IMG/VR virus record: IMGVR_UViG_3300035666_000002
Length of the DNA: 64,000 nt
Direction: 5' to 3' (one strand)
Origin: a virus
Each line of letters starts with the position of its first letter. Position 1 is the stretch's first letter. Under the pieces are notes generated by a model. That model was not told the origin of the DNA, did no database searches, and worked only from the letters and a program-made list of their open reading frames with translations. Made by a program: the position numbers and the translations under genes. This document shows, one piece after another, positions 8,875 through 55,858 of this stretch.

Positions 8875-8979
8875 CGTTATATTTGTTCCGGGACCTATCC
8901 AGTTTCCTGATGAATCGATTACATCTGTAGTGCCTACAGACAAACCATTTTTTACTATGAAATTAGAATTAGTAGCCAA
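6760..8979 (-). CDS. Collagen-like tail fibre protein C with S74-type chaperone
   Basis: GVP/GPT/GVS/GFQ triplets over ~560 aa; C-terminal [10 protein letters not shown]...[13 protein letters not shown]; TTG start. Confidence 0.85.
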
Positions 8980-20700: not shown

Positions 20701-20968
20701 CAGTTAAATTACCAGTGGCAATTTCTCTAGAACCTAATTCAACATTTCTACCTATTGTTACAGTGTTTGAAAGAAGAACATTATTAGCAACTGTAAGTGA
20801 TGTTCCCTGAGCGGTTATTGATAACGCTCCAGTATTAGAAATCGTCAGGGTACCTGATGTCTTATTAAAATTACCCGTTTCGATGTTATTAATTGCATTA
20901 GCTGATTGATTGGTCTGAATTCTCCATTCATCAACTGTGTTTATTCTAGTGATATTATTAATAGGCAT
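14765..20968 (-). CDS. Long tail fibre (2067 aa) with internal repeats and S74-type chaperone
   Basis: N-terminal NTVDEWRIQTN; 22-aa DNARITANVTANSFV repeats; three ~140-aa repeats; C-terminal YSDDKLK...GVSAQEVQKVLPE. Confidence 0.8.
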   Translation of the reverse strand: MPINNITRINTVDEWRIQTNQSANAINNIETGNFNKTSGTLTISNTGALSITAQGTSLTVANNVLLSNTVTIGRNVELGSREIATGNLTVGANVFIYGVGTALFVANNATVNTNLQVTQNVRTNNIVANVNVTVSGTTQSGNLLVDSIAIITGNTTAGNLTTANATSTGSLRVNDTTETSSNISGAAIIYGGVGVSKSAFISGNVTVKGDAAGAVNNTVLLSLGSLASNSAGNLYIYAANTANGGANGSLTVQGNSNITGNLRLGSGLVSSSKTTGSLIVEGGVGVSANVHATDFIATNSLVADNARITANVTANSFVGTGSLVVNNARITANATFGETTATTINATNARISGNANVSSITASNSLVADNARITANVTANSFVGTGSLVVDNARITANVTANSFVGTGSLVVDSARITANVTANSFVATGTLVADNARITANATFGETTATTINATNARISGNANVANVTISNSLVADNARITANVTANSFVGTGSLVVDNARITSNATFTETTATTINATNARISDNANVSSITASNSLVADNARITANVTANSFVATGTLVADNARITANVTANSFVATGTLVADNARITSNLSAVNLYASSVYDNGNRVARTVSATAPISATLNSSTGALAISHDVSGVTATTYGNSVNVASFTVNDRGHITSAQNVAIRTGSTTETGILQLTDSITSTSTTTAATANSINTAVLLFQANVGAARIADVAAAQANVGAARITDTANAQANSGAGDITVTNAYQANVGAARIAITNAYQANVGAANISAFANHVKLTSTSQTITGSLAITGGVSVGGDFTITGQQLVDTNRIKLMATTKQTIGAGYDYITINRVNATATLDGTSDTINMSAHGFSMGQNVMFTNISAASVGSPVTGLSNNTIYRVLVLNASGAVAVGGTNSNFFKVTTSAGYNSASPATSTPINFANNGTTLTFDQDNKDADLRWSEVSKVWEFRDVGNLDDSTAYSRILTANLMSNSISLDSSSNVATSNAVRTAVLSGQANVGAGLISITNAYQANVGQLRLDTQNANTSLAANIGAARIADAANAQANSGVALITARADIDTANTKLKNYADSTFLPKTGGTISSDLTISGSLTVSGSITTINTEEINLADNEIVLNSNHTTNMMPTQNAGIIINRGNIANSPNVYIRYDEGNDYWVLRDNSGQFIVGTTANAGAGDIAVTSAYQANVGAGLITKVNKSGDTMTGALNVAINTAATSTITGALIVGGGAGIAGSAWAANLVSTGPIYGATGVFDTGTRVASAITASSAILGSLAANGRLYVSHEDTSTQENVDNSAGNVIQDVTLDGFGHITALGSVNLDDRYYTEAESDSRFVNVTGDTMTGALTITDNTAATSTSTGSLKVSGGVGVAGNVWAANVVSTGPVYDTGTRVASAITASSAILGSLAANGRLYISHQDTSTQENVDNSAGNVIQDVTLDGFGHITALGSVNLDDRYYTETESDNRFVNVTGDTMTGALNIATTTAATSTATGALIVGGGVGGGGIGVAGNVWAANLVSTGPVYGATGVFDTGVRVASAIVASSSILGSLAANGKLYISHDDTSTQASVDNSAGNVIQDVTLDTNGHITALGSVNLDDRYYTETEADSRFVNVTGDTMTGALNIANATVATSRITGALIVAGGAGVSGDLYADQLYSTALNIEAGGFIEVLSTDASTSRTTGSIVTSGGIGVSGNAWAANLVSTGPVYGATGVFDGGVRVARSVNPQTGIVSSLAANGNLSIGHADTSTLSGALGPTGPFTSGTTGVITSLTIDGFGHITDSAGATVSLSNHNHDGTYLSTGGGTLTGALTITDTTAATSTSTGSLKVSGGVGVAGNVWAANVVSTGPVYGATGVFDGGVRVARSVSGTAPITASLTNGALSISHDTSGVVAATHGSATEIPVFTVNDRGHITTVTNTAISLGTTGTPQFASLGVGTAASGTTGEIRATGDITSGYSDDKLKDKIGNIENAIDKVVQLAGFYYQPNELAKSLGYDDSVQVGVSAQEVQKVLPEVVVPAPIGSQFLTVKYDRMIPLLIEAIKELKSEIEDIKKKI
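15380..17340 (-). repeat. Large (~420 bp) internal duplications in the long fibre gene
   Basis: Three copies of DTSTQ...NVIQDVTLD...GHITALGSVNLDDRYYTE...RFVNVTGDTMTGAL; about 96 bp identical between ~15390-15485 and ~16779-16874. Confidence 0.9.
19190..20080 (-). repeat. ~66-bp tandem repeats encoding (DNARITANVTANSFVxTGxLVx)n
   Basis: Directly visible near-identical units in the DNA and protein. Confidence 0.9.
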
Positions 20969-21204: not shown

Positions 21205-24200
21205 TTACTCCGCAGGTGTTGCAATAATACGTAAATCTCTTACACTGGGTGGAATCGCTGGGTCTGTAGAGGTGAGAACAATTTTTATAGCAAAGGTTTT
21301 GAAACTATCATAAGTCACACCATTTGATCCTGTGTAAGTTACTTGATTTACCGTAGCTGAAGGGCGATATTCATATTCTCTATAAGTTGTTAAATCTGGC
21401 GAAGGAGTTGTTGTTGGATTGATACAAACCATCTTTTCATAAGGTCTATCTGCGAATTCTGTTCCATCCGAATCTGAAAGAACTTTATAGTAGACTGACA
21501 CCTCAGAAATACCAGGTTTGTTTGCAGACAAGAACACACGTAAATCTCCAGCATCATAACCATCTGCCAATTTGATAGGCTTAGTGATGTATCTTGCAAG
21601 GCAAGGACCACCAGAAGAATCAAACTCGCTATTCAGTACGATTGTAGCTGGAGTAGTTGGATGTGTATAATATGAAATTGTGAAATCATCCAAATAACCA
21701 GACCCAGAAGAAGTGACATAGATTCCTACAACATTTCCATTCGCATCAACTGTGACGTTCGCATTCGCTCCAGAACCGGTGGAACTCGTTACCGAAATTA
21801 AATTAGCATTGCTGTATTTGGATCCTGGAGCAATAATTGTAAAATCATCTGAGGTAATTTCTCCATTGTCTAAGAAATTTTCCCAAACGTTCAAAAACAG
21901 ACTTTCTTCGGAAATAATAGGAGATACAGCATCATTTGTCGTCGATATAGTCGCTTTTAATGTCCAATCATTCTTACTTCCAATTTTTTTGCGTCTATTT
22001 CCTACTGCGTAAATATCATCTTCCGCCATCATATATGTGACGTAAGGAGTAATTGGTCTATAAGTCGTTTCTTTCGAACCTGTTACTGGTGTGGTAACAA
22101 TAGAGTAATTGAGATTTGTCACACCAGCAGAAGGAATAATAGAAGTTTCCATCAATTTAAATTTATCAACATAATATAAAGATGGAGTTGCCTGATTCTC
22201 GAAAGCATAAGTTGCTGAAGAAGTAGAGAAAACACAACGATTCAATCTAAACATCAAATCTTCATTCATGAACGGAACATATTCCATGGAATTTTGTGAT
22301 TTGTAAAGTGTTCCGACATATGGTTGTTTATCAACAAATTCGTTGTTGGTTGTCGTTGAACCTTTTTCAGCACCCCAAATTGTATAATCATTTGAGTCTG
22401 TTAGAACAACAAATGCATACAGACCTGGTTTCAGATAAACTGGAAAATCAAATTTGAAGTTGGTTGCAGTCGCAGTTGTTGATACCGAAGGATTATCAGA
22501 AATGTTAATCTCACTAGGATACTTGACTACGACCGATTCTGGATACCAATAATCTGAGGAAGGTGCGCCATTAATAGTTGGTCTAATTTGAACGATAACT
22601 GGTATATTTTCATCATCCTTTGCTCTGAAAAATAAATCCATGCTATCCAAAAATAATCCATAAGGATACTTTTCAACATCAACGAAGAATGTTTGCGCTA
22701 GAGGATCTCTATTAACTGCGGTAAATACTGTACTTAATTCTCTAGTACCAATAATTTTCTCTGAAGTGAGCGCACCAACAATTTTGCTATCCACATCAAC
22801 ATTCAAAACAGTATCAACTAATGTAGTTTTATTTACTGTAATGCCTGAAGATGTATAAACTTTATCTGCAAAAGAAATTGCATCTGCATCATAAGTGTTG
22901 TTGAATGATTCAGTTACACGGAAGTTTCTTTGCCCAGAACGGAAGGTTGCTTCAGGTATGTAAAGAGCGCCACCAATTTGACCTAATTTATTTGTGTTAT
23001 TATTACCAAAACTGTAAACATATTCTTGCCCTGCATAAGCAGAAGCTCCGCTAACGGTTGCAACTTTAGTCGTTGTATTATAATTAATAACATTAAATGA
23101 GGCACCGACACCAATTTCATTATTTGATTTGTGTATTAAGTATAATGTATTGCTAGAAATATTATAAGATGGAGCATCTGAAGCGAGAGTAATTTCTGTG
23201 GCTGTAATTCCTCTTGTAACTCCGGAGCGATGATCATTTACACTAGAGATAGAATAAACATTTCCTGAGTCTACACCGTATACGAATTTGCCTGATAAGT
23301 TTATTGTAGCATTTTCGTTTATGATTGAAACATTAGCAGAACCAATTTCACTCATAACGATTGTGCCGGTTTTAAATGATGATCCTCCGGCGACTAAACT
23401 TGCTACATTAGCAACCAAATCTGCATAGGTATTGGCTATCAGGATAGTTTCACCATTTGTTAATCTTGTGTTCACATTTAATGTGACTCTGTTGGGAACA
23501 ACAACATATTTGTTAACATCAACATCATCAAAGAAAGAATACATTCTTGTTGATGGTCTTAAACCAACCGAAGAGAAAACAATTCTCTTTGGTTTCATAT
23601 AAGGCTGAATTGCTAAATCTGTAACAAAAGTTCCAACATCAACTTGTGAAGAAGAAGTTGATATTTGTTTTTGTGAAAACTCTGTTCCAGCTTTAGCAAA
23701 AGTTAATTCATTAGTCGTTGTCAAGAAACCAAAGCCTTGTGATTTCCAACCTACATCACTAACTATTGTTTGATTTCTAGTCTGGTACCATTTACTATCA
23801 ATTATTTGAGCAAACGGACTATTTTTATCATCTCTCCATTGAGGTACATTATCTGAAATATATTTAAATGCTTGATTAACAAAATTAAATGCGTTTTCTA
23901 CCCCTTGTGTTGAATTTAAAGTTACCTTAGCAGTAACTCCAGTATCAACATCACCTGTAAATTCAGGAAATAATTTCGTTACACCTTTAAAGTTTGCAAA
24001 AAGTGCTTGTGCAACAGGAATGGATTTAGTAAAATATTGTTGTTGAGCAAAATTAGAAGATGTATAAGAAAGAATGTGTGCTTTCTTTGATCCTGTTCCT
24101 ATAGTTTTAGTTGAACCAGTAAATGAAGAAGTAATTGCTTGTAATTTTACAGTTCTCATTAGTGAAGCAGGATATAATGTTCCATTATCAAGAAGATTTC

Positions 24201-27200
24201 TATTATCGAAAGTAGTTGTATCCTGAACTAATTCTTTATTTGTAAAATTATCAACAAGTATACCATACTTCGCTCTTTCTAATCCATTGTTGTCCAATAT
24301 CTTAGCGTCTGCGGCACTCTTCTCAAGTGCGTTTAAAGAAACATAATATTCTAGACCACGAATTCTATCTTCAAAGTTTTGAATGTCCTGCATTGTATAA
24401 CGACGATTATTCTTGAAATCTGCACGAATATCTTTTACATTTTCGGTATACGCAGGAATAGTCAAAGTATAAATCAACATATCTTTTACATCAACCACTG
24501 GAGGAAGAGGTTGTACGGCAGCCTGCCCCTTAACAACAGCAAACTCTCCTCCTGATTTTACAATAACTCTATCGATTCTCGGCAGATAATAATCATATGA
24601 CATCTCAATGTTTTCTAATGGTTCTGGATTTAAAGCACCTGATAGTGTTGTTCCGCCAATAGCTTTGTATGGTCTGAAATCAAATGCCGATCTTAAACTT
24701 AGAATGTTATTGTTTTCTTTATCATTAAATGAAGGAATGTCATCATAATTAATATTAGAACCTTGTGCATAAGAATCTACAGTAAATAAGCCGCTAAAAA
24801 CTGTTAGTTGTTTAAAGTAACGGTACTGAACAAAAATTCTTCCGGTTGGTGCAGAAAATCCTCTTTTCAATTTAATAGTTGCATGATCATAGTGTGTTTT
24901 TCTTTGACCAGTATCAAATTCATATCTTTCTGTGACATCATACGCTGTATTTGTAAGCATTGCAGAAGTCACATTTGATGTTGTATTTTTAGAATCAAAT
25001 ATGCCGACAATTTCATAAACATCAGGAACTTGTAAACTAACAACTTTTCCTGGCGTTCTCAGATCGGTTAGAATTGATGATTCTGTGAAGTTTGTTGCAC
25101 CAATACTTTTGAAAACCATTCCTCCGGCAAAACTAGTAGTTTCACCAGAAGTATTTGCCGAATAGAGAACATCCGTACCTTGTGTTCCAGAAGTATTCAT
25201 CTCATAAGGGATTAAATCATGAAGAGTGTCACTTATAGGAACTAATTGCTTTTTCTTTGTTACACCTGTTGTGGCATTTTCGGCATTGTTTATTTTTGTT
25301 GTCACCAATAAATCAACTCTTATAGTATCTTCCGTTTTCAAATCTACTTCGAAGGAGTTAGTACCAATAGATGTGACTGTAAAGTTATCATTCGAAAGGG
25401 CTAAAACAGTATTTGCAGTTATTCCTAATTGAGCATTGCTTGTGCTATCGGAGCGAACAAAACATATAATATTATCTCGTATTAAAGAATCTGAAATTAC
25501 GCCACTTCCTGAAGAGAATGCAAAAGTATCAGGAGAGGTTGCAGTAACAGTAAATTTGCCTGTAGCGGCAACTGTCACACCAGAATATTTCTTTCTAACA
25601 TAAAAATCCATATCAGAAATCGTATTCGCTTTAATTGCGGTTTGTCTTGGGTTAAATATCAACGAAGCTCTAGCTTGTTCATTAATTGATGCGAATCCAG
25701 TGGACGTCGATTTAGAATCGGCATCAATATTTCCCGCAAATGCAATATAAAGCCCACCATTTGCAACAAGAGATTCAGCAGCAGTGAAGTCTGATTCAAT
25801 ACTAAATGTGTTCGACGCTGGAATAAAAGGTAAAGAAGATGAAAGATTTAATGTTACAGTATTTGAACTTGTAATCAATATTGGTGAAAGACTAGAACCA
25901 CCAGAATCAGTGATTCTAAAATACATGTTAGCATAAGCATTAGTTGTAAGTGTCGAACTAAATGTGGTAGGAATAGCAATCGTTGTTGGTGAACTTCCGC
26001 TTGCTGCTAATGTACCCGTAACAGGAACATTATTGGCACCAAAAAGATACGTCGTGAATGTATGTGTATTTCCGTTAGATGAATCTGTGGAATCATTGTA
26101 ACGAATCATATGAGCATAAACCGTACCAATTTTTGTAGAGTTATATTTTGATGCAGTTGTTATCTGTATACTTTCGTGTGGGACGCAATGAATATCGAGT
26201 TGAGGAAAAGTTGTGATGTCTAATGTGTTACGAACGTTTGCTAATACAACACTTGATTCATAGTTAGTTGGAAGATCAAAATCATTCACATTCGCAACTT
26301 CTCTTGCTCTATCAACTTTGATTCTGCTTGGAGCTATAGTTTGAAATTCATAACCTCCAACATAAGCTTTACCTGGATCCAACACTACATCAAATTTACC
26401 ATTAGCTTGATCACCTTCTTCTAAAGAAATAACAAAAGGATCGACCGTGTAGTTGCCTGATTCATCATATGTTCTTCTAGCTAAAGTTTTCTCAATTTCA
26501 CTATAAATTGGATATTCTATCTCTTTTGTTTTAACGTCTTCAACAAGTCGTATAATTTCAAAAAATGTTGAAGTATCGGCTGAATCCAGAGTTCTCTTTG
26601 AAAGAGTTGTTGTAACTTGAAAACGATTTGCGCCGGGAGCTTGATAGTTAAATGAGCCTTGTGCAGGATCTAACAGTGAAGTATCATCAATTTCATCTAC
26701 AATATTTTCTTCAAACTCAATACCAATCTTGTAAGAGGGTAAGACATTGACTGTTGAACTAGATCCAATTCGATAAAAAGATTCAATAATTAAAAATTGA
26801 GGAACAACTTTAACAAATTGACCTTTAAAATAATAAACACCTTCTTGTATGCTTGCAACAAAAGAACCTCCTGTTGCATTTGTTCCTCTTAATACCGCAA
26901 AAATATCTTGTCCAAAAACTCGAAGCTCATCACCCTCTGCAAATTTCTCTCCACTTAAATACTTAATAACGAGAATTGATAACCCTCCAGTGGTGTCTGT
27001 TGCTATAACTTTAGCTCTAACCAATTTGGAACTATTATATGAGACAATAGTTTTATCACGGAAATCATTTAAGTCAATATCTACACCACTATATTGATTT
27101 TGCAAAATAATATAGTTAGCTTTTCTATCTAAAGAAATTCTTCCACCAATAATAGGGCTGCCACTCTTAAAAATGTGATTGCCGAACTTTTCTATTTGAT

Positions 27201-27333
27201 TAGATAAAATAGTTTGTAATTGAGTCAATTCTCTAGCCTGAACAGCATATCCAGGTCTAAATAGAACCCTTAAAAAATTCTTATCTTCATCAAAATCGTC
27301 GTAGTATGGGTCGTAATTGAAAAGCGTAGTCAT
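21205..27333 (-). CDS. Large virion structural protein (DUF4815/VrlC-like)
   Basis: PYYDDFD...VLFRPGYAVQARELTQLQ N-terminus; APGANRF; RRTYDESGNY; DPLAQTF; C-terminal FAIKIVL. Confidence 0.8.
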   Translation of the reverse strand: MTTLFNYDPYYDDFDEDKNFLRVLFRPGYAVQARELTQLQTILSNQIEKFGNHIFKSGSPIIGGRISLDRKANYIILQNQYSGVDIDLNDFRDKTIVSYNSSKLVRAKVIATDTTGGLSILVIKYLSGEKFAEGDELRVFGQDIFAVLRGTNATGGSFVASIQEGVYYFKGQFVKVVPQFLIIESFYRIGSSSTVNVLPSYKIGIEFEENIVDEIDDTSLLDPAQGSFNYQAPGANRFQVTTTLSKRTLDSADTSTFFEIIRLVEDVKTKEIEYPIYSEIEKTLARRTYDESGNYTVDPFVISLEEGDQANGKFDVVLDPGKAYVGGYEFQTIAPSRIKVDRAREVANVNDFDLPTNYESSVVLANVRNTLDITTFPQLDIHCVPHESIQITTASKYNSTKIGTVYAHMIRYNDSTDSSNGNTHTFTTYLFGANNVPVTGTLAASGSSPTTIAIPTTFSSTLTTNAYANMYFRITDSGGSSLSPILITSSNTVTLNLSSSLPFIPASNTFSIESDFTAAESLVANGGLYIAFAGNIDADSKSTSTGFASINEQARASLIFNPRQTAIKANTISDMDFYVRKKYSGVTVAATGKFTVTATSPDTFAFSSGSGVISDSLIRDNIICFVRSDSTSNAQLGITANTVLALSNDNFTVTSIGTNSFEVDLKTEDTIRVDLLVTTKINNAENATTGVTKKKQLVPISDTLHDLIPYEMNTSGTQGTDVLYSANTSGETTSFAGGMVFKSIGATNFTESSILTDLRTPGKVVSLQVPDVYEIVGIFDSKNTTSNVTSAMLTNTAYDVTERYEFDTGQRKTHYDHATIKLKRGFSAPTGRIFVQYRYFKQLTVFSGLFTVDSYAQGSNINYDDIPSFNDKENNNILSLRSAFDFRPYKAIGGTTLSGALNPEPLENIEMSYDYYLPRIDRVIVKSGGEFAVVKGQAAVQPLPPVVDVKDMLIYTLTIPAYTENVKDIRADFKNNRRYTMQDIQNFEDRIRGLEYYVSLNALEKSAADAKILDNNGLERAKYGILVDNFTNKELVQDTTTFDNRNLLDNGTLYPASLMRTVKLQAITSSFTGSTKTIGTGSKKAHILSYTSSNFAQQQYFTKSIPVAQALFANFKGVTKLFPEFTGDVDTGVTAKVTLNSTQGVENAFNFVNQAFKYISDNVPQWRDDKNSPFAQIIDSKWYQTRNQTIVSDVGWKSQGFGFLTTTNELTFAKAGTEFSQKQISTSSSQVDVGTFVTDLAIQPYMKPKRIVFSSVGLRPSTRMYSFFDDVDVNKYVVVPNRVTLNVNTRLTNGETILIANTYADLVANVASLVAGGSSFKTGTIVMSEIGSANVSIINENATINLSGKFVYGVDSGNVYSISSVNDHRSGVTRGITATEITLASDAPSYNISSNTLYLIHKSNNEIGVGASFNVINYNTTTKVATVSGASAYAGQEYVYSFGNNNTNKLGQIGGALYIPEATFRSGQRNFRVTESFNNTYDADAISFADKVYTSSGITVNKTTLVDTVLNVDVDSKIVGALTSEKIIGTRELSTVFTAVNRDPLAQTFFVDVEKYPYGLFLDSMDLFFRAKDDENIPVIVQIRPTINGAPSSDYWYPESVVVKYPSEINISDNPSVSTTATATNFKFDFPVYLKPGLYAFVVLTDSNDYTIWGAEKGSTTTNNEFVDKQPYVGTLYKSQNSMEYVPFMNEDLMFRLNRCVFSTSSATYAFENQATPSLYYVDKFKLMETSIIPSAGVTNLNYSIVTTPVTGSKETTYRPITPYVTYMMAEDDIYAVGNRRKKIGSKNDWTLKATISTTNDAVSPIISEESLFLNVWENFLDNGEITSDDFTIIAPGSKYSNANLISVTSSTGSGANANVTVDANGNVVGIYVTSSGSGYLDDFTISYYTHPTTPATIVLNSEFDSSGGPCLARYITKPIKLADGYDAGDLRVFLSANKPGISEVSVYYKVLSDSDGTEFADRPYEKMVCINPTTTPSPDLTTYREYEYRPSATVNQVTYTGSNGVTYDSFKTFAIKIVLTSTDPAIPPSVRDLRIIATPAE

Positions 27334-49603: not shown

Positions 49604-49618
49604 TGATCTCCTTTGAAT

Positions 49619-49903
49619 GGTGGGTTATTCTGTTACGAGGAAACCCACCGAAACCCTAGGCTGTGTTTAGGCAGCCAATGCGAAACGTTCTTCGTTTGCG
49701 TTTACTTCGATTTACTTTTAGCGACTCTCTGTGTCGAACCGTCCATCTTCCTACTTATTGCCCCGTCGAAACCAGGTCAGGCCCATCAGAAGCACACAAA
49801 GACCTTTTGGCTACTGCCGATACCAGTCGATATGCACTTCTGGTGGACCTGGGCGGAATCGAACCGCCGTCCGAGACACTTTTCAGTCAACTTCATACGA
49901 TCA
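49619..49903 (-). ncRNA. ssrA: Circularly permuted (two-piece) tmRNA, tag (A)ANEERFALAA
   Basis: Minus-strand order: T-arm GGCGG-TTCGATT-CCGCC plus CAGGTCC-ACCA (CCA ends at 49841); 56-nt intervening hairpin; 5' end GGGCCTGACCTGGTTTCGAC from 49784 (acceptor stem with G3.U); tag ORF 49699-49667 after GTAAAC; terminal hairpin GGTGGGTT...AACCCACC; outer boundaries approximate. Confidence 0.92.
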
Positions 49904-49909
49904 TGTGGT

Positions 49910-49915
49910 ATTATA
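49910..49915 (-). promoter_or_regulatory. Putative -10 box (TATAAT) for the tmRNA
   Basis: TATAAT just upstream of the acceptor piece; no canonically spaced -35. Confidence 0.5.
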
Positions 49916-49945
49916 TAGCAATAAAGATTTAAGGTGAGGCAATCT

Positions 49946-51157
49946 TTACTCTACAAAATATTTTTTACTATGCAATAAAGGTAAAGTAGAAAATTCGAAT
50001 CTTTTTTGTTGATTAAAATTGTAAGAAGTTGTCTTAATCAAACTAGAAAAATTTTGTATATATTTTAAAGCACCATTATTCCATATTTTAACATACTTGT
50101 CATCCAACTTATCGACCCACCAACAATCAATATTTTTTTTACCATTAAGACGTAGTTTGGGGGTTACTATATTTGGAGACCAATGTGGATATATTGTTTT
50201 GTGATATAGATCATATCTCAAATTTTTTCTCAAATGTAATTTAGATTCACAGGTAAAAGAATTTCTGAATTCTGTATTATCTAACTTATTTGAATTTTCG
50301 AAGAGTGACACATCATTTTGTTTCTCATATTTTTCCACTGTTTTTTTGAGAAGGTGAATTTGCTTTATGATTAATTCGGGGAACTTTGGAGTTTGATAAA
50401 AAAATTCTATTATATTCGTTGGATTTAACTCGATACAATTATGCATACTTGTTGTTATGTCGCATGCCATAATATCATTGAATACTGTATAATATTTTTT
50501 ATCGTTTAATTTAAGCAAAGGTTTATCGACACCCATAACCACACCCACTTTTTTGCCGGATGATATCATATCGAATATATGAGGAATATATTTAACCCAT
50601 ATTCCTCTCATCATCCAGAATGATGGAAATGTACCAGATGAAAACAATAACTCATAATAGTCTTTAGAATATAAATCATCCCATATTTTTTTAGTAATTT
50701 CTATTTCATCTACAATCGTTACCTTAGTTTCCATGTTTTCTTTTAAAAGTCTTTCTAAAATAGGTTTAACATTATAGACGTAATCGGCGTTATGGATTGT
50801 TCCTTGCACAACAGATGTAGAATTGTAAGTGTTGAAATTTATGATTTCATCTAACTTTATTTGATTTCTCAAAAAAGTTTGTAAAATATTTGTGCTATCT
50901 GGTCCTCCACTATATTGAAGGATGACATAATCATATTCATCTCTTATTTGCTGTGCTCTTCTTCTATAAAACTCCTCTATAGAAACTTCAGGTTCCGGCT
51001 CTCGCGTCCAATCATATCTATCAAAAACATGTTCATTAAATTTATACTCAACTCTAGCATTTTTAAGCAAAGCTTCGTTGTATGCTAAATTTTTAGAAAA
51101 GAATATTTTTCCACCAACTGAGTAATATCCAAAATCGTTATTCAGAGATAATGTCAT
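49946..51157 (-). CDS. PP-loop (adenine nucleotide alpha-hydrolase-like) protein 1
   Basis: VILQYSGGPDS; GVDKP; paralogous to 54041-55123. Confidence 0.7.
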   Translation of the reverse strand: MTLSLNNDFGYYSVGGKIFFSKNLAYNEALLKNARVEYKFNEHVFDRYDWTREPEPEVSIEEFYRRRAQQIRDEYDYVILQYSGGPDSTNILQTFLRNQIKLDEIINFNTYNSTSVVQGTIHNADYVYNVKPILERLLKENMETKVTIVDEIEITKKIWDDLYSKDYYELLFSSGTFPSFWMMRGIWVKYIPHIFDMISSGKKVGVVMGVDKPLLKLNDKKYYTVFNDIMACDITTSMHNCIELNPTNIIEFFYQTPKFPELIIKQIHLLKKTVEKYEKQNDVSLFENSNKLDNTEFRNSFTCESKLHLRKNLRYDLYHKTIYPHWSPNIVTPKLRLNGKKNIDCWWVDKLDDKYVKIWNNGALKYIQNFSSLIKTTSYNFNQQKRFEFSTLPLLHSKKYFVE

Positions 51158-52016
51158 TTATAAGTTTTTCAGGAGATGTTATTGAATGTGTCCCAAAGTG
51201 AATATCCATAGTTTTCCTAACATTTATAGATGTTTCACTTTCGAAATATTTTTTCAGATACACTCTAAGTTTATCAACTTGTTCTTTATTAGCATTCTTA
51301 TTTGCAAACAAGAAGATGTTATTGTACAACTTAAATTCATTTTCAACCGACAAATTTAAATCTTTCAGAGTGGGAACATCTGGCAAGTAACTCGATTTGG
51401 AAGGACCAAATATTGCTAAGGGGATTAATGTATTATTTTTTACGTATTGGTGTATATTATTTGGTATACTAACTCCCAATACTATGTGCCTTCCTATGAC
51501 ATCGTTTGTCACAGCAGTTCCGCTCTTATATGGTATTCCTATAAAATTTTTAGAATTTGAATATGTATCAGTGATGATATGAATCAATTTTCCATTACTA
51601 CTACTTCCCGCGAATCCATAGCTGATTACATCAGTCTGAGATTTTTCCAATACTTCTTTAAGGCTACGATAATTACTTTTAGAGTTTACGAAAATAATTC
51701 CAGGTATAGTTCCCATATAAGCAACTGGAGTCAAATCGCGCAAAGGATTGGTTGACCAATTTTGAACTGGTCCCATCATTAAAGTAATCTTTTCTGTTTT
51801 ATTCTCAGAAAGAGCAGAAGCACCAATAGAACCTTGGGCTCCTGGCTTAAACTCTATTATCACATTTCCAAAAAATTCATTAAAAAATGACTGCATCTCC
51901 AGAGCATATTTGTGAACAAGTCCACCGGGACCCACTGGCAGAATTAAAACGGTCGGCTGCTTAGCCGAACATATTGAAGAGAAAAATATTAACAAAGATA
52001 ATAACAAACGTTTCAT
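51138..52016 (-). CDS. Bug/TctC-family (tripartite tricarboxylate transporter) solute-binding protein
   Basis: Signal peptide; LPVGPGG; EFKPGAQGSIG; DLTPVA; PYKSG; LPDVPTLKD. Confidence 0.8.
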   Translation of the reverse strand: MKRLLLSLLIFFSSICSAKQPTVLILPVGPGGLVHKYALEMQSFFNEFFGNVIIEFKPGAQGSIGASALSENKTEKITLMMGPVQNWSTNPLRDLTPVAYMGTIPGIIFVNSKSNYRSLKEVLEKSQTDVISYGFAGSSSNGKLIHIITDTYSNSKNFIGIPYKSGTAVTNDVIGRHIVLGVSIPNNIHQYVKNNTLIPLAIFGPSKSSYLPDVPTLKDLNLSVENEFKLYNNIFLFANKNANKEQVDKLRVYLKKYFESETSINVRKTMDIHFGTHSITSPEKLINDIISE

Positions 52017-52366
52017 TTTAATTCCACATAAAAATCATAATTTAAGCCTAATTTATTTCTTTTTAACTTCATAAACTGTTGTCTGATGTAAATTAGAGAA
52101 TTTATTGCAGGATTTTTAATGATATCATATGCGCTTGCTGCTGCTTCTTGTGTATCAAATTCTAATGTAAATGTGTATGAATAATCGTCTATAAAATCAG
52201 TAGATGACGTAACATATCCAGGAAGATATGAATACGCATTTCTAGTATTAACAATAACATCAATTTCTTCTTTACTAAAAATACCTTTGTCTATCGTTTC
52301 TTTATTAGGTATAACCCAGTCTTTTGATGTATCATCTCTTGTCCAAGTCATAAGAACTTTTGCCAT
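52013..52366 (-). CDS. Hypothetical protein
   Basis: Tightly coupled ORF within the cluster. Confidence 0.65.
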   Translation of the reverse strand: MAKVLMTWTRDDTSKDWVIPNKETIDKGIFSKEEIDVIVNTRNAYSYLPGYVTSSTDFIDDYSYTFTLEFDTQEAAASAYDIIKNPAINSLIYIRQQFMKLKRNKLGLNYDFYVELK

Positions 52367-53203
52367 TTAAATCTCCTTATACTTTTCGAAAAAATCGAAG
52401 AATTGTTTTCTTGACAATGCCACTTTTATTTTTTTGTTCGGATATTTTATTATTTTTAATAATTCTTGTATTCTGTTTTCCGTTTCATCTGAATATCTAT
52501 ATCGCATCTTATTTCTCAATTTTAAATTAAATTTTTTATGCTTAAATATAGCCCAAATCATTCCGGTACTTTGACTATCCGGAATAACAGAATAAACCAT
52601 TTCTATATTATACGTGAAAAAATTTATATTGATTGGCTTTTCCAAGAAATAATCAACATAAAAATCCCAATCATAGCCAAGAAATATTTCTGCATCTTGT
52701 ATAAAGTCGATTCCGTCGCCAGTTAAAAAATGATTTCCGCTTATTAATACGGAGTTATCAATTTTAGACACATAATCCGCAGCGACCATATTGTATACAC
52801 TATTATATCCTACACTATCAAATTTATTAATTATGTGCTCTTCAAAGAAATCTAAGAAATATTTTTCACTTATCTCCAATATTGTTGGATCCAATCGCAA
52901 TTCCTTACATGTTTCGTATGCATATTCTAGTTCATGTGTGGGTCCACATTTAACTATTATTGGAACAAAATTGATAGAATTTTTATGTAAACTTCTTACA
53001 ACATACTCTGAATCATAACCACCACTGAATGCGACAAAAATTTTCTTATTCAGGTCACCTAGTTGTTGGCATGTAAAATTCGTTGCCTCATCAAACGACA
53101 TTGACTTAAACCGATAAGGGTTAATTATAAACTTTAGATCGGCCGACTTATCAACAAATCTTTGCCGAAGATTAGTATCAAACCAATTTTGATTTGTCAA
53201 CAT
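52367..53203 (-). CDS. PP-loop protein 2 (divergent)
   Basis: IFVAFSGGYDSEY; likely start ATG 53203. Confidence 0.65.
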   Translation of the reverse strand: MLTNQNWFDTNLRQRFVDKSADLKFIINPYRFKSMSFDEATNFTCQQLGDLNKKIFVAFSGGYDSEYVVRSLHKNSINFVPIIVKCGPTHELEYAYETCKELRLDPTILEISEKYFLDFFEEHIINKFDSVGYNSVYNMVAADYVSKIDNSVLISGNHFLTGDGIDFIQDAEIFLGYDWDFYVDYFLEKPININFFTYNIEMVYSVIPDSQSTGMIWAIFKHKKFNLKLRNKMRYRYSDETENRIQELLKIIKYPNKKIKVALSRKQFFDFFEKYKEI

Positions 53204-54044
53204 TGTTTCTATACCACTCACCAAAGTGTACACAGTGAGATTCATATCTATTAGACGTATTCATCAATGGAAAATATGGAACACGTTGTTTTGAAGTAGC
53301 TTCAACGTCTTGTCTAAACACATCTTCCATAGTTTCGAAAATTAACTTATCATTTGCACTCACGTTATCATCATAAAAAAATTGTGTGATCCATGTATAT
53401 CCGAATTCAGTATTATGATTTTTAGGAAACACTCTATTGACAGCCAATTTTCCTTTTGCTCCATATTCTACAAAAACATATGGAAAAATATATAGCCACC
53501 AACCATCTGGATGTTCTTGATATATCCATCCGTCACCTTGGTCCAATTTGATGTCTTCCAATTTCACTTGTTGATAAAGAAAAGGATGAATTCCATCCCT
53601 CCACAAATGAAGTAGGTCTGCTTCTATATCCATCAACCAAAGCCAACTACCATGACTTTCACCGGAGCGAAAATGACTATATTTAAGTGATGTTTCGCTC
53701 TGCAAATCCCTAACCCATTTATGATCAGGTTCTACAAAATCTTTTAAAATTAAATTTGAAGCACCAACTTCTGCTTTTCCGCAGATAAGATTTTTATCGT
53801 TGTCCAATGGATTTCCAAATTTGTCCCAATTAAAATTATGAAGTTTGCAGTGTATGCTTTGTACAATTTCCCCCGGTTCGTGCAATGGGTACATTCTATG
53901 TGGGCAGTTTTTTCTAAACAATCGAACTTCATAAAAATATTTGTTTAGGATATAGTCTGGCAATACATAGTTGCCGTTATCTAATACGGAGATGTGCGAC
54001 AACACTATTGGAACTTTGTTTTTAAACATGATAAAATCGTTCAA
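53178..54044 (-). CDS. Compact Rieske non-heme iron oxygenase (ring-hydroxylating alpha-subunit-like)
   Basis: Rieske ligands CPH...CKLH; mononuclear iron motif EADLLHLWRDGIH and distal FRQD. Confidence 0.75.
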   Translation of the reverse strand: MNDFIMFKNKVPIVLSHISVLDNGNYVLPDYILNKYFYEVRLFRKNCPHRMYPLHEPGEIVQSIHCKLHNFNWDKFGNPLDNDKNLICGKAEVGASNLILKDFVEPDHKWVRDLQSETSLKYSHFRSGESHGSWLWLMDIEADLLHLWRDGIHPFLYQQVKLEDIKLDQGDGWIYQEHPDGWWLYIFPYVFVEYGAKGKLAVNRVFPKNHNTEFGYTWITQFFYDDNVSANDKLIFETMEDVFRQDVEATSKQRVPYFPLMNTSNRYESHCVHFGEWYRNNVDKSKLV

Positions 54045-55123
54045 AGATAGTATCGTTTTGAATAAATTATAGGAAGATTTTTACCTGTTGGAATTTTTCC
54101 TTGCAATCTTCTTTTCATATTTTTCATACCACCCAAGTATATTTTAAACATTTCTGTATCTTTTTTATTCAAAATATATCTATCTCTACTACTCAAATAA
54201 AAACTACTGCTTTTTGGTGACTTTACAGATAAAGCATTTTTTATATCATAAACTAAAGAAACGTTACGACCATCTTCAGTTAAAACAGTATTAGAAATCA
54301 AATCATTAATATGATGCACACATACATCAATTGGCTTTTTAGATAAGTTATGGTAAACCAAACAATTATTTTTAATAATATGTAATTGCTTCAATAAAAT
54401 ATCAGGAAAATTTACATCCCAGAAGAAAAACAATCGATCACTATATAATGAACTAAATCTATTTCCATAAGAATTTATCGTATAATCCTTAAAAGAAAAA
54501 TAAAATTTATTATTTGGTAAATCGAAAAATAGATATGGTTTATCCATCCCGAAAATTATTCCTGTTTTCTTATCTCTCCATGAATTTGGCACTATAATTT
54601 CTTCCAAATTGTGCCAGAAAAAATGATGTAGACTGAAGTATGAACCAACCTTATCTATCCAATTGTGACCATATTCATTTAGCATGAAATTTGAAGGATT
54701 ATCGAAAAGTTTTGTGTAATCGAAAACTTCATATATTTCCGAAAGATTGTATTTCTTTATAAGAGGAAAAGCATTCTTGTAAGCCTCTATATTCATATTT
54801 TCATCAGAATCCGAATTTGCATCTTGACTAAATGCTCCTACGGTGACGATTTTATCCAGCTTTATATTATTAAAAATGAAGGTTTCTAATACTTGAGTTG
54901 AATCGTATCCTCCACTATAACAAAGTATCAATTTGTCATACTTTTCCCGAATGCGTAAAGCATTGAGTTTATATAACTCTTTAATGTTTAAAGCAGGTTC
55001 GACATTCCAATTTAATTTATCATATTCTTGGTCATGATAGTAAAAAAATACATTTCCATCATTCTCTAAAGCTTCAATTTTAGAATGAAATATTTTTTGT
55101 TTAGAATAATAAAAAGTGTGCAT
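54041..55123 (-). CDS. PP-loop protein 3
   Basis: LILCYSGGYDS; GMDKP; paralogous to 49946-51157. Confidence 0.7.
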   Translation of the reverse strand: MHTFYYSKQKIFHSKIEALENDGNVFFYYHDQEYDKLNWNVEPALNIKELYKLNALRIREKYDKLILCYSGGYDSTQVLETFIFNNIKLDKIVTVGAFSQDANSDSDENMNIEAYKNAFPLIKKYNLSEIYEVFDYTKLFDNPSNFMLNEYGHNWIDKVGSYFSLHHFFWHNLEEIIVPNSWRDKKTGIIFGMDKPYLFFDLPNNKFYFSFKDYTINSYGNRFSSLYSDRLFFFWDVNFPDILLKQLHIIKNNCLVYHNLSKKPIDVCVHHINDLISNTVLTEDGRNVSLVYDIKNALSVKSPKSSSFYLSSRDRYILNKKDTEMFKIYLGGMKNMKRRLQGKIPTGKNLPIIYSKRYYL

Positions 55124-55126
55124 TTT

Positions 55127-55858
55127 TCACCTAGGTGTTTTCCATACTACAGGATGAAACGGAGCTTTCTCATTCTCCGGTCTATCTTTCGTATAATAAT
55201 ACAGTGCGAGAGACAATCTGTCAACCTCTTTTGGTGTGTTTAGAGGATGGGGATGACCATGAAATGCATCATCAGTAATTCTAAAAATTACTGCTCGATT
55301 AAATAGTGGAGGAACCTGAACACAACATTTGCTCATGTCTTTTTCCCAAAGTTCTAGATTACCGCCCCAATCTTCTTTCCAATATTCATTGAGATAAATC
55401 AACATGTTCAATCTACGATGAAGATTGTTTTTAAATTGTATATTAAAATCGGCGTGTATTCCTAATTTGCCACCAGTCGTTACTTTATGAACACCTCCAC
55501 CCAAAAAAGTTTCATCACCACTCAGTTCAGGTATGCCTGTAAGATTCTCAAGAAATTTTAGAGTAGTCGAATCATTCAGATAGTCCAACGTGAACTTGGT
55601 AATTGGGCAATCTCTTTGGAGATATTTCAGAGTCTCCAGATCAAAAACATCGGGTGTATAGAACTTATTAACTTGATAGTCTTTTACCGTCTCTGTTGTA
55701 TCTTGCGACCAATGTTGGTAAGATTTAAGTTCGGTTGCAATTTTTCTTGCAACCTCACCATGCAAAAAATTATCTATTACGATATATGGAAAAGGATAAG
55801 CAGAAGAGTAAGCAGACTTAAAAAAGTTAGCTGAGTTTAAGACTGTTTGATTGATCAT
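55127..55858 (-). CDS. 2OG-Fe(II) oxygenase superfamily protein
   Basis: IHADF, WGGNLELW, FHGHP, RLSLALYYY; paralogous to 1171-1881. Confidence 0.85.
   Translation of the reverse strand: MINQTVLNSANFFKSAYSSAYPFPYIVIDNFLHGEVARKIATELKSYQHWSQDTTETVKDYQVNKFYTPDVFDLETLKYLQRDCPITKFTLDYLNDSTTLKFLENLTGIPELSGDETFLGGGVHKVTTGGKLGIHADFNIQFKNNLHRRLNMLIYLNEYWKEDWGGNLELWEKDMSKCCVQVPPLFNRAVIFRITDDAFHGHPHPLNTPKEVDRLSLALYYYTKDRPENEKAPFHPVVWKTPR

What the first reader, a model, noticed from the sequence alone, without database searches (positions are those of the whole stretch)
49946..55858. Phage-encoded biosynthetic-like cluster: three PP-loop enzymes, a Rieske oxygenase, a 2OG-Fe(II) oxygenase and a Bug/TctC receptor
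Seen: seven co-oriented, abutting or overlapping genes, visibly more AT-rich than the flanks. Three carry the SGGxDS PP-loop; two of these are clear paralogues sharing EP...Y...A..IR..YD, G.DKP and KQ.H motifs. One has a complete Rieske CxH/CxxH plus 2-His-1-carboxylate site, one is a 2OG-Fe(II) oxygenase, and one is a secreted Bug protein with no TctA/TctB partner in the window. Established: PP-loop N-type ATP pyrophosphatases adenylate substrates (asparagine synthetase, lasso cyclase, tRNA thiolases, QueC); Rieske oxygenases hydroxylate or demethylate small molecules; Bug proteins bind carboxylates in the betaproteobacterial periplasm. Inference: a dedicated pathway that makes or modifies a small carboxylate/amide metabolite, with a cognate periplasmic receptor (signalling, metal or nutrient capture), or alternatively modifies a nucleoside or peptide. 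I know of no described phage system with this composition.
Basis: partly seen in the sequence, partly recalled or inferred. Interest (0 to 1): 0.85.

Follow-up and report, generated by a model that had tools for sequence, protein, structure and literature searches.

The report
Phage carboxylate-uptake and amidation cassette
A lake T4-like phage carries a tight operon that pairs a secreted carboxylate-binding protein with three members of a virus-only family of ATP-using enzymes shaped like asparagine synthetase, and this pairing recurs across many uncultured phages, pointing to an undescribed way for phages to capture and chemically convert dissolved organic acids.

Summary
Seven abutting or overlapping minus-strand genes lie at 49946-55858. 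Three have an SGGxDS PP-loop, and two of these are clear paralogues. The others are a TctC/Bug binding protein with a signal peptide, a complete Rieske oxygenase, a 2OG-Fe(II) oxygenase and a 117-aa ORF.

The replicon is an uncultured T4-like lake phage (gp32, gp59, PhoH, betaproteobacterial-type tmRNA).

The seven genes are not a fixed unit. The conserved core is a virus-restricted PP-loop family placed directly beside a periplasmic carboxylate-binding protein.
- The family has no Pfam match. Its fold is closest to the asparagine synthetase/beta-lactam synthetase synthetase domain (Z about 10). It has no invariant cysteine.
- It has 1,179 representatives at E<=0.001 and relatives on 336 IMG/VR contigs, but only 3 MAG contigs among 185,579 species genomes.
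- 64 of 87 fetched loci carry a TctC or DctP gene. 51 of 62 TctC copies are directly adjacent to a PP gene.
- Two phage loci also encode the permease TctA.

The Rieske gene recurs in a subset of loci. The 2OG gene was found in no other locus.

Best reading (about 0.45): import of an organic carboxylate, then ATP-dependent adenylation and amidation in the cytoplasm, with oxidative tailoring. The substrate is unknown. No paper or earlier scan note describing this was found.

The parts
55127..55858 (-). 2OG-Fe(II) oxygenase (prolyl-4-hydroxylase-like), 243 aa. Window-specific addition, not part of the conserved core.
   Evidence: PF13640 67.9 bits and PF13661. HAD...H and RLS motifs are visible in the translation. 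No homologue in 87 related loci at BLASTP 1e-4.
54041..55123 (-). PP2: virus-specific PP-loop ATP pyrophosphatase, 360 aa, paralogue of PP1.
   Evidence: YSGGYDST motif. 27% identity, E 1e-22 to PP1. 1,179 representatives at E<=0.001. Orthologues in the same position in L006, L007, L010, L032, L057 and L064.
53178..54044 (-). Compact Rieske non-haem iron oxygenase alpha subunit (about 283 aa; likely start at ATG 54029).
   Evidence: PF00355. Invariant C47, H49, C66, H69 and D143, H146, H153, D246. AF2 pLDDT 91.6. Foldseek: CntA, SxtT/GxtA, stachydrine demethylase, terephthalate dioxygenase, E about 1e-11 to 1e-10. More than 187 homologues at 55-87% identity.
52367..53245 (-). PP3: short PP-loop protein (292 aa) of a viral Asn-synthase/QueC-like group, distantly related to PP1/PP2.
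   Evidence: FSGGYDSE motif. ESM Atlas: viral clusters, with structure matches to Asn_synthase domains at TM about 0.7. hhalign to the PP1/2 family 88.6% over 63 columns. Orthologues in L007, L010 and L057 at 39-43% identity.
52013..52366 (-). Small acidic ORF, 117 aa, function unknown. Conserved in position in the closest cassettes.
   Evidence: No family hit. 32-39% identical ORFs between PP3 and the next gene in L007 and L057. The 123-aa ORF in L006 is only marginally similar (E 0.023).
51138..52016 (-). TctC/Bug-family periplasmic solute-binding protein with a Sec signal peptide, 292 aa. It overlaps PP1 by 20 nt.
   Evidence: PF03401 62.3 bits. Best solved relative is Bug27 (2qpq), E 9e-17. 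N-terminus MKRLLLSLLIFFSSICSA. TctC homologues lie adjacent to PP genes in 51 of 62 copies.
49946..51157 (-). PP1: virus-specific PP-loop ATP pyrophosphatase, 403 aa, with an asparagine-synthetase-like synthetase fold.
   Evidence: YSGGPDST motif. 70 metagenomic homologues, none named. AF2 pLDDT 89.4. VIA-align: AsnS 9b6c Z 10.2, AsnB 1ct9 Z 9.7, beta-lactam synthetase Z 8.3, TsnB9 Z 8.3, CarA Z 7.9. Invariant S83, G84, G85, D87, D150, G209, K212, D228.
49604..49951 (-). Betaproteobacterial-type, circularly permuted tmRNA immediately downstream. A syntenic neighbour; membership in the cassette is not shown.
   Evidence: ARAGORN tag ANEERFALAA. Rfam RF01850 133.8 bits and RF04321 126.8 bits. 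A tmRNA lies next to the TctC-PP module in L004, L006, L007, L009-L011, L032 and L064.

Best explanation
This is an auxiliary cassette of an uncultured T4-like lake phage whose host is probably a betaproteobacterium.

Its conserved core is a capture-and-convert module.
1. The exported TctC/Bug protein binds an organic carboxylate in the periplasm. It hands the ligand to a tripartite tricarboxylate permease, which is the host's here and phage-encoded in some relatives.
2. In the cytoplasm the virus-specific PP-loop enzymes (PP1, PP2, PP3) adenylate a carboxylate with ATP. A nitrogen nucleophile (ammonia or an amine) then resolves the acyl-adenylate, giving an amide or lactam, as in asparagine synthetase or beta-lactam synthetase.
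3. The Rieske oxygenase, and in this phage the 2OG oxygenase, hydroxylate or demethylate the same small molecule.

Shown: the gene content, the folds, the motifs, the restriction to viruses and the conserved linkage. Inferred: the direction (uptake), the chemistry (amidation), that all genes act on one substrate, and what the phage gains. The substrate is unknown.
For: Replicon:
- T4-like phage: gp59, gp32, PhoH, exonuclease, tail lysozyme.
- The stretch is held by 24 lake-water metagenome runs from 2020-2024; 12 of these may be the source sample, and runs of one year and habitat may be one campaign.

PP family:
- PP1 model pLDDT 89. Best fold matches are asparagine synthetase Z 10.2 and 9.7, beta-lactam synthetase 8.3, hydroxyamidotransferase TsnB9 8.3 and carbapenam synthetase 7.9. 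These stand above NadE, LarE and TilS at 5-7.
- PP-loop S-G-G-x-D-S plus D150, K212 and D228 are invariant, and there is no invariant Cys. This rules against sulfur-transfer and QueC-type chemistry.
- Median pI is 6.6.
- The family is virus-restricted: 336 IMG/VR contigs against 3 MAG contigs in 185,579 species genomes.

Linkage:
- TctC occurs in 54 loci and DctP in 22, so 64 of 87 loci carry one or both. 51 of 62 TctC copies lie within 150 bp of a PP gene, and 46 of these are on the same strand.
- All 62 TctC N-termini were printed. Most show a typical Sec signal by eye; no signal-peptide predictor was run.
- 20 of 25 locus groups that share no PP at 50% identity or more carry a binding protein.
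- The adjacent binding protein switches between TctC and DctP at least 4 times on the PP tree. Two different carboxylate-receptor families are therefore interchangeable partners.
- TctA lies between PP and TctC in L087, a contig with the T4-like nrdA-GIY-YIG-nrdB arrangement. A second TctA is in L081.

Oxygenase and operon:
- The Rieske model matches oxygenases of small carboxylates: carnitine, stachydrine and terephthalate.
- The genes overlap or abut, consistent with one operon.
Against: - No substrate is identified.
- No ammonia source (glutaminase) and no Rieske reductase is encoded in the cassette.
- Similarity to asparagine synthetase is structural only. There is no PF00733 hit in 56 family members, and hhalign aligns only the 12-column PP-loop.
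- The accessory enzymes in related loci also fit natural-product or glycan tailoring: radical SAM/SPASM, Trp-halogenase-like, ATP-grasp, AMP-binding, BKACE, Amidohydro_2 and sugar nucleotidyltransferases.
- About a quarter of the loci show no binding protein, although several of these are cut at the PP gene.
- Many loci come from related phage lineages, so part of the linkage is shared descent.
Confidence: 0.45

Rival explanations
1. Biosynthetic tailoring cluster. The PP enzymes form amide or lactam bonds in a peptide (RiPP-like) or other secondary metabolite made during infection. The oxygenases, halogenases, radical SAM and ATP-grasp enzymes are tailoring steps. The binding protein is a receptor, carrier or immunity factor for the product.
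For: - Related cassettes carry radical SAM/SPASM and a Trp-halogenase-like enzyme (L007; L044) and an ATP-grasp enzyme (L006).
- The 2OG oxygenase weakly resembles the cyclophane-peptide maturase YhhC (44 bits).
- Asparagine-synthetase-like enzymes include lasso cyclases and beta-lactam synthetases (established knowledge; fold match).
- A small, fast-evolving ORF sits inside the cassette.
Against: - No recognisable precursor, leader-recognition domain, protease or exporter was found.
- The small ORF is 117 aa and looks like a folded domain.
- The tailoring genes differ from locus to locus, whereas PP plus binding protein is the constant part.
- TctA next to PP-TctC points to import.
Confidence: 0.2
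2. Nucleic-acid modification. The PP enzymes are TilS-, QueC- or ArgG-style enzymes that activate a base on phage tRNA, tmRNA or DNA. The binding protein imports the group to be attached.
For: - The phage has a tmRNA directly downstream, and this is syntenic in 8 related loci.
- An earlier scan note reports a large tRNA array in the same genome.
- PP-loop enzymes include many tRNA modifiers. There are weak TilS and MnmA/tRNA_Me_trans hits (E 0.09 to 0.02; 8.5e-4).
Against: - Fold matches to TilS, MnmA, ThiI and QueC are weaker (Z 4.2-5.8) than to asparagine synthetase (Z about 10).
- The family's median pI of 6.6 is not typical of nucleic-acid binders.
- There is no conserved Cys and no Zn motif.
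- No TGT/DpdA or other transfer enzyme was seen in the cassette.
- The constant partner is a periplasmic carboxylate receptor.
Confidence: 0.1
3. NAD-related counter-defence. The Bug protein imports nicotinate. The PP enzymes act like NadE, NMN synthetase or LarE on a nicotinate-nucleotide carboxylate to rebuild NAD+ depleted by host immunity.
For: - The best solved relative of the TctC is Bug27, which is reported to bind nicotinate (from memory, not checked here).
- Foldseek's top PP1 hits are LarE (E about 7e-4). NadE and NMN synthetase score Z 7.1 and 6.5.
- In L004 the TctC-PP pair lies beside NAMPT and an NMNAT-Nudix gene.
Against: - The recurrent cytidylyltransferase-like neighbours are RfaE-II/heptose-1-phosphate adenylyltransferase-like, not NMNAT.
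- The 460-530-aa neighbours are not NAMPT.
- No NAD genes lie near the cassette in this window.
- Two to three paralogues and TRAP partners are hard to fit to one cofactor.
- LarE chemistry needs a Cys that is not conserved here.
Confidence: 0.07
4. No common function. The genes are independent accessory genes piled up in a hypervariable region between the PhoH/exonuclease and gp59/gp32 blocks, and the linkage reflects shared ancestry only.
For: - The cassette sits at the same genomic position in related phages whose PhoH is 85-91% identical.
- Content varies, and the 2OG gene is unique to this phage.
Against: PP-binding-protein adjacency persists at about 30% PP identity. It appears in both orders and both orientations, with two receptor families, and in different genomic contexts including 250-350 kb phage contigs.
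Confidence: 0.1

Closest known systems
Asparagine synthetase B, beta-lactam synthetase, carbapenam synthetase, TsnB9 (class II amidotransferase synthetase domains)
   Same: PP-loop SGGxDS motif. The overall fold of the synthetase domain is shared (Z 7.9-10.2 over about 280 aligned residues). The expected chemistry is carboxylate adenylation followed by attack of a nitrogen nucleophile.
   Different: - No N-terminal Ntn glutaminase domain.
- No PF00733 signal in 56 members.
- About 10% identity.
- A distinct conserved N-terminal GYYxVG...SK motif and a GxDK motif.
- Virus-restricted.
Phage-encoded periplasmic binding proteins as auxiliary metabolic genes (e.g. cyanophage PstS; from general knowledge)
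   Same: A phage carries an exported solute-binding protein that presumably plugs into a host membrane transporter to raise uptake during infection.
   Different: - The receptor here is of the TTT (or TRAP) carboxylate type.
- It is translationally coupled to a dedicated cytoplasmic enzyme family.
- Some relatives add TctA.
- In the paper library, only tctA had been listed as a viral AMG of unknown role (PMC4164917).
Terephthalate catabolic genes of Comamonas (TphC TTT receptor plus Rieske terephthalate dioxygenase)
   Same: A TTT binding protein is combined with a Rieske oxygenase that acts on the imported carboxylate. TphC-type terephthalate-binding proteins (8hka and relatives) and terephthalate dioxygenase are both among the matches.
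   Different: Here there is no reductase, dehydrogenase or ring-cleavage gene. PP-loop enzymes take their place, and the setting is a lytic phage.
CntA, Stc2, GbcA-type and SxtT/GxtA alpha3 Rieske monooxygenases
   Same: Full-length fold match (TMq 0.68). A Rieske CxH/CxxH site plus conserved His, His and Asp.
   Different: About 280 aa against 350-410 aa. The putative iron histidines are spaced H-x6-H. Identity is 13-15%.

Membership tests
PP-loop ATP pyrophosphatase superfamily | SGGxDS pyrophosphate-binding loop at the end of the first strand of a Rossmann-like domain | tested here: met
   The motif is present in PP1, PP2 and PP3. It is invariant in 27- and 56-sequence alignments. All top fold matches are PP-loop enzymes.
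Asparagine synthetase B / beta-lactam synthetase family (PF00733) | Sequence membership in Asn_synthase (PF00733) | tested here: not met
   No PF00733 hit for PP1-3 or for any of 56 family members. hhalign to a cellular AsnB domain aligns only 12 columns, probability 15%.
Asparagine synthetase B / beta-lactam synthetase family (PF00733) | Synthetase-domain fold | tested here: met
   VIA-align Z 10.2 (9b6c), 9.7 (1ct9), 8.3 (1jgt), 7.9 (1q15), with 279-293 residues aligned. The PP3 Atlas model matches Asn_synthase clusters at TM about 0.7.
Asparagine synthetase B / beta-lactam synthetase family (PF00733) | N-terminal Ntn glutaminase (GATase) domain | tested here: not met
   The proteins are 292-403 aa and have no GATase hit. 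No longer fused forms were found (weak evidence).
Sulfur-transfer PP-loop enzymes (MnmA, ThiI, TtcA/TtuA, NcsA, LarE) | Conserved catalytic or Fe-S-binding cysteines | tested here: not met
   There is no Cys among the invariant or nearly invariant columns of A1 and A4.
QueC (PF06508) | PF06508 membership and a C-terminal Zn-binding Cys motif | tested here: not met
   No Pfam or NCBIfam hit and no conserved Cys. Only 13-38% of members of related Atlas clusters carry PF06508.
TTT solute receptor (Bug/TctC, PF03401) | PF03401 above the gathering score, a signal peptide, and similarity to solved Bug proteins | tested here: met
   62.3 bits against a cut-off of 27. Bug27 E 9e-17, BugE (2dvz) E 4e-15, BugD E 5e-9. 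The N-terminal signal was read from the sequence.
Complete TTT transporter (TctABC) | TctA and TctB membrane subunits encoded with TctC | tested here: not met
   The window has no genuine multi-TM ORF. TctA is present in the related phage loci L087 and L081. Host genes could not be examined.
Rieske non-haem iron oxygenase alpha subunit | CxH-x(15-17)-CxxH cluster site, a 2-His-1-carboxylate iron site, and the alpha-subunit fold | tested here: met
   C47-P-H49...C66-K-L-H69 are invariant. D143, H146, H153 and D246 are invariant; their assignment as iron ligands is inferred, with unusual H-x6-H spacing. Foldseek E about 4e-12 to CntA, TMq 0.68.
Rieske oxygenase system | Dedicated reductase or ferredoxin partner | tested here: not met
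   No such gene is in the cassette. A host partner would be needed, and this is not testable here.
2OG-Fe(II) oxygenase superfamily | Double-stranded beta-helix domain with HxD...H and a 2OG-binding Arg | tested here: met
   PF13640 67.9 bits. H-A-D, a later His, and R-L-S were read from the translation.
RiPP / lasso-peptide cluster | Precursor peptide, leader-recognition (RRE) element and leader protease next to the cyclase | tested here: inconclusive
   No family hit for any such component. The small ORFs are uncharacterised.

The most novel reading that the evidence does not exclude
Large freshwater phages carry a previously unrecognised class of auxiliary system. Interchangeable periplasmic carboxylate receptors (TTT or TRAP, sometimes with their own permease) feed a virus-only radiation of asparagine-synthetase-like enzymes. 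These convert dissolved organic acids into phage-specific amides, for example precursors for a hypermodified nucleic acid, a cofactor or an antimicrobial lactam. That would link lake DOC turnover directly to phage-encoded chemistry.
Probability: 0.15. Interest if true: 0.85.

Novelty: new variant of a known kind. Interest (0 to 1): 0.62.

Why it matters
Phage auxiliary genes are usually borrowed host enzymes. Here the enzyme family is essentially confined to viruses. It is large (more than a thousand 50%-identity clusters), unannotated in Pfam, PHROGs and NCBIfam, and consistently wired to host-type carboxylate uptake receptors.

If the capture-and-convert reading is right, it defines a new enzyme family with a tractable assay. 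It would also be a new way for phages to reprogram nutrient uptake in abundant lake bacteria, and it gives a handle on the ligands of orphan Bug and TRAP receptors. If the product turns out to be a modified nucleotide, cofactor or lactam, the interest rises further.

Tried and rejected
- GenBank phages: no DNA match to the cassette, and no protein match for PP1, PP2 or PP3. There was one weak TctC hit in a faecal phage contig.
- Sequence searches of the PDB with PP2 and with the PP1-family profile gave nothing meaningful.
- PADLOC: no defence family for any PP, TctC or Rieske protein. The only hits were a generic 2OG model and a 16-bit PtuB hit.
- Complex prediction on PP1 with mature TctC returned no verdict (score 0.00). 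It is not used as evidence either way.
- A search for longer fused forms of PP1 found none, which is weak evidence.
- NAD hypothesis: the recurrent cytidylyltransferase neighbours proved to be RfaE-II-like, and the 460-530-aa neighbours are not NAMPT.
- No whole genome is held for the window.
- No RNA run holding the stretch is listed, so expression is untested.
- Literature searches for phage TctC/TTT, DctP AMGs, phage asparagine synthase with binding proteins, and PP-loop/Rieske/2OG in phages found no description of this module.
- The 123-aa ORF of L006 is only marginally similar to the 117-aa ORF.

Full report
**What is there**

The interval 49946-55858 holds seven minus-strand ORFs that abut or overlap. 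The junctions are a 3-nt gap, an ATGA overlap, and 20-nt and 68-nt overlaps. Upstream are an exonuclease and PhoH. Immediately downstream is a tmRNA.

The translations show SGGxDS PP-loops in three proteins:
- PP1: 403 aa, 49946-51157.
- PP2: 360 aa, 54041-55123.
- PP3: 292 aa, 52367-53245.

PP1 and PP2 are paralogues (27% identity, E 1e-22). PP3 is only distantly related to them. BLASTP is not significant, but a profile of the PP1/2 family aligns to PP3 with 88.6% probability over the region around the PP-loop. Protein-language and structure look-ups place all three near the same viral clusters.

Pfam recognises TctC (62 bits), a Rieske domain (25 bits) and a 2OG-Fe(II) oxygenase (68 bits). 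It recognises none of the PP proteins or the 117-aa ORF. PHROGs and NCBIfam add nothing firm.

The AT-richness is real but modest. The Rieske gene probably starts at the ATG at 54029.

**The replicon**

The window encodes gp59, gp32, a tail lysozyme, PhoH, an AAA protein, three collagen-repeat fibre paralogues and two ORFs of about 2,050 aa. Its PhoH is about 53% identical to those of T4-like cyanophages, and no cultured phage is closer.

The tmRNA is of betaproteobacterial type (RF01850, 134 bits). The cassette DNA is held almost word for word by 24 lake-water metagenome runs from 2020-2024. Twelve of these may be the source sample, and runs of one year and habitat may be one campaign. The element is therefore an uncultured T4-like lake phage. 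A betaproteobacterial host is likely but inferred.

**The PP family**

PP1 has 70 homologues in the 90% clusters. All are metagenomic hypothetical proteins, many on contigs of 70-360 kb. PP2 finds 1,179 representatives at E<=0.001 in the 50% clusters. None of 56 diverse members hits any relevant Pfam family.

A pattern-seeded scan found relatives on 336 IMG/VR contigs. The same kind of scan found only 3 MAG contigs among 185,579 species genomes. No GenBank phage matches.

The AlphaFold model of PP1 is confident (pLDDT 89.4, pTM 0.91). An exhaustive structural comparison ranks these first:
- human and E. coli asparagine synthetase, Z 10.2 and 9.7;
- beta-lactam synthetase, Z 8.3;
- hydroxyamidotransferase TsnB9, Z 8.3;
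- carbapenam synthetase, Z 7.9.

NadE, NMN synthetase, LarE, NcsA, TilS and QueC score Z 5-7. Foldseek agrees on the superfamily.

The invariant residues are the PP-loop, D150, G209/K212 (the GxDK motif), D228 and a few aromatics. No cysteine is conserved. This argues against thiolation, Fe-S or QueC-type chemistry, and leaves adenylation followed by amide or amidine formation. The family's median pI is 6.6.

There is no glutaminase domain, and no longer fused form was found.

**The linkage**

Neighbourhoods of PP1 homologues and of 80 IMG/VR loci were clustered by all-against-all BLASTP. Several patterns emerged.
- The PP family occurs 138 times in 87 loci, often as two or three tandem paralogues.
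- The next most frequent cluster is TctC. It has 62 copies in 54 loci. 51 copies lie within 150 bp of a PP gene, and 46 of these are on the same strand. All 62 N-termini were printed; most show a typical Sec signal by eye, and no signal-peptide predictor was run.
- A second cluster, in 22 loci and always within 2.5 kb of a PP gene, is the TRAP receptor DctP.
- Together, 64 of 87 loci carry a carboxylate receptor. Several of the remainder are contigs cut at the PP gene.
- After grouping loci that share any PP at 50% identity or more, 20 of 25 independent groups carry a receptor.
- On a PP tree the adjacent receptor switches between TctC and DctP at least four times, and receptor adjacency is scattered over the whole tree.
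- Two phage loci also encode the TTT permease TctA. In L087 it lies between PP and TctC, on a contig with the T4-like nrdA-homing endonuclease-nrdB arrangement. In L081 it lies among genes shared with 13-15 other viral loci.

The full order PP2-Rieske-PP3-small ORF-(radical SAM)-TctC-PP1 is conserved in L007, L010 and L057. L006, L032 and L064 have PP2-small ORF-PP3-TctC-PP1 without the Rieske gene. The 2OG oxygenase has no homologue in any locus.

**The oxygenases**

The Rieske protein belongs to a well-conserved group of about 280-aa proteins, with more than 187 members at 55-87% identity. They occur on large phage contigs, in islands rich in oxygenases and receptors: FA_desaturase paralogues, TauD, radical SAM, Amidohydro_2, TctC, DctP and a 400-aa gene beside TctC.

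The Rieske ligands C47, H49, C66 and H69 are invariant, as are D143, H146, H153 and D246. The model is confident (pLDDT 91.6). It matches full-length alpha3 Rieske oxygenases that act on small carboxylates or alkaloids: carnitine oxygenase CntA, stachydrine demethylase, terephthalate dioxygenase, SxtT/GxtA and NdmA.

The 2OG enzyme is prolyl-hydroxylase-like with intact motifs.

**Interpretation**

Two unrelated receptor families share only one property: they bind organic carboxylates for secondary transporters. They serve as interchangeable partners of an enzyme family whose fold and motifs point to carboxylate adenylation. A cognate permease sometimes accompanies the pair.

The simplest reading is import of an organic acid, followed by ATP-dependent conversion, most likely amidation, in the cytoplasm. 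Oxygenases and other enzymes would act as variable tailoring steps. I give this about 0.45. The substrate, the nitrogen donor, the electron donor for the Rieske protein and the benefit to the phage remain unknown.

The rivals are:
- a RiPP-like or natural-product tailoring cluster, 0.2;
- nucleic-acid modification, 0.1;
- NAD-related counter-defence, 0.07;
- an unrelated pile-up of accessory genes, 0.1.

The NAD idea was tested through the neighbours and weakened. A complex prediction for PP1 with TctC gave no verdict.

**Comparison and novelty**

The parts belong to known superfamilies: PP-loop ATP pyrophosphatases, TTT/Bug receptors, Rieske oxygenases and 2OG oxygenases. The PP family fails sequence membership in Asn_synthase, lacks the glutaminase domain and is virus-restricted. 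The PP-receptor module was not found in GenBank phages or in the paper library. There, only tctA had been listed as a viral AMG of unknown role (PMC4164917).

I rate it a new variant of a known kind: a phage auxiliary uptake gene coupled to a new enzyme family. The scan had noted this same stretch, and the adjacent tmRNA, on this genome only.

Noticed in passing
window 49604-49951 (-); L004:8721-9129, L006:12407-12787, L007:11389-11764, L009, L010, L011, L032, L064: A betaproteobacterial-type, permuted tmRNA (tags ANEERFALAA, ANDE(K/R)FALAA, ANDSVFALAA) lies next to the TctC-PP module in this phage and in eight related loci. In L004 it is upstream of the module rather than downstream.
   Followed up: partly
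window 2469-8979 (-): Three tandem paralogues of about 700-740 aa with long collagen triple-helix repeats and a C-terminal S74 intramolecular-chaperone domain. They explain the GC-rich block (0.42-0.57) in a genome of about 35% GC. They are probably alternative tail fibres.
   Followed up: partly
window 14765-20968 (-) and 21205-27333 (-): Two giant ORFs of 2,067 and 2,042 aa. The first ends in an S74 chaperone domain (fibre-like). An antisense ORF at 19155-20258 with 12 hydrophobic segments is probably spurious.
   Followed up: no
L087:5130-6422 and L081:1784-3283: TctA permease genes of the tripartite tricarboxylate transporter are encoded on viral contigs. In L087 the gene lies between the PP gene and TctC.
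   Followed up: partly
L004:11879-14633: Next to the TctC-PP pair lie a bifunctional NMNAT-Nudix gene and a NAMPT gene (an NAD+ salvage pair of the kind reported in phage counter-defence), followed by a tRNA with a CUA anticodon (called tRNA-Pyl by ARAGORN).
   Followed up: partly
L091:4737-12308: A homologue of the Rieske gene sits on a 266-kb phage contig among four FA_desaturase-family paralogues, a RimK-type ATP-grasp and a B12-radical SAM enzyme. This is an oxygenase-rich island of unknown role.
   Followed up: no
L003:6475-15820; L001:11207-12293: Large phage contigs with PP genes also encode curli secretion proteins CsgF/CsgG and ribosomal protein S21 (L003). L001 encodes an IF1/eIF-1a-like protein, Fe/Mn superoxide dismutase and an Fe-S assembly protein.
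   Followed up: no
L040:6109-6966, L043:6379-7248, L073:3078-3836 and others: RfaE-II-like sugar-phosphate nucleotidyltransferases, some fused to a mannose-6-phosphate-isomerase-type cupin, recur 1-3 genes upstream of PP-PP-TctC modules together with a methyltransferase. This may be a glycan or sugar-nucleotide module.
   Followed up: partly
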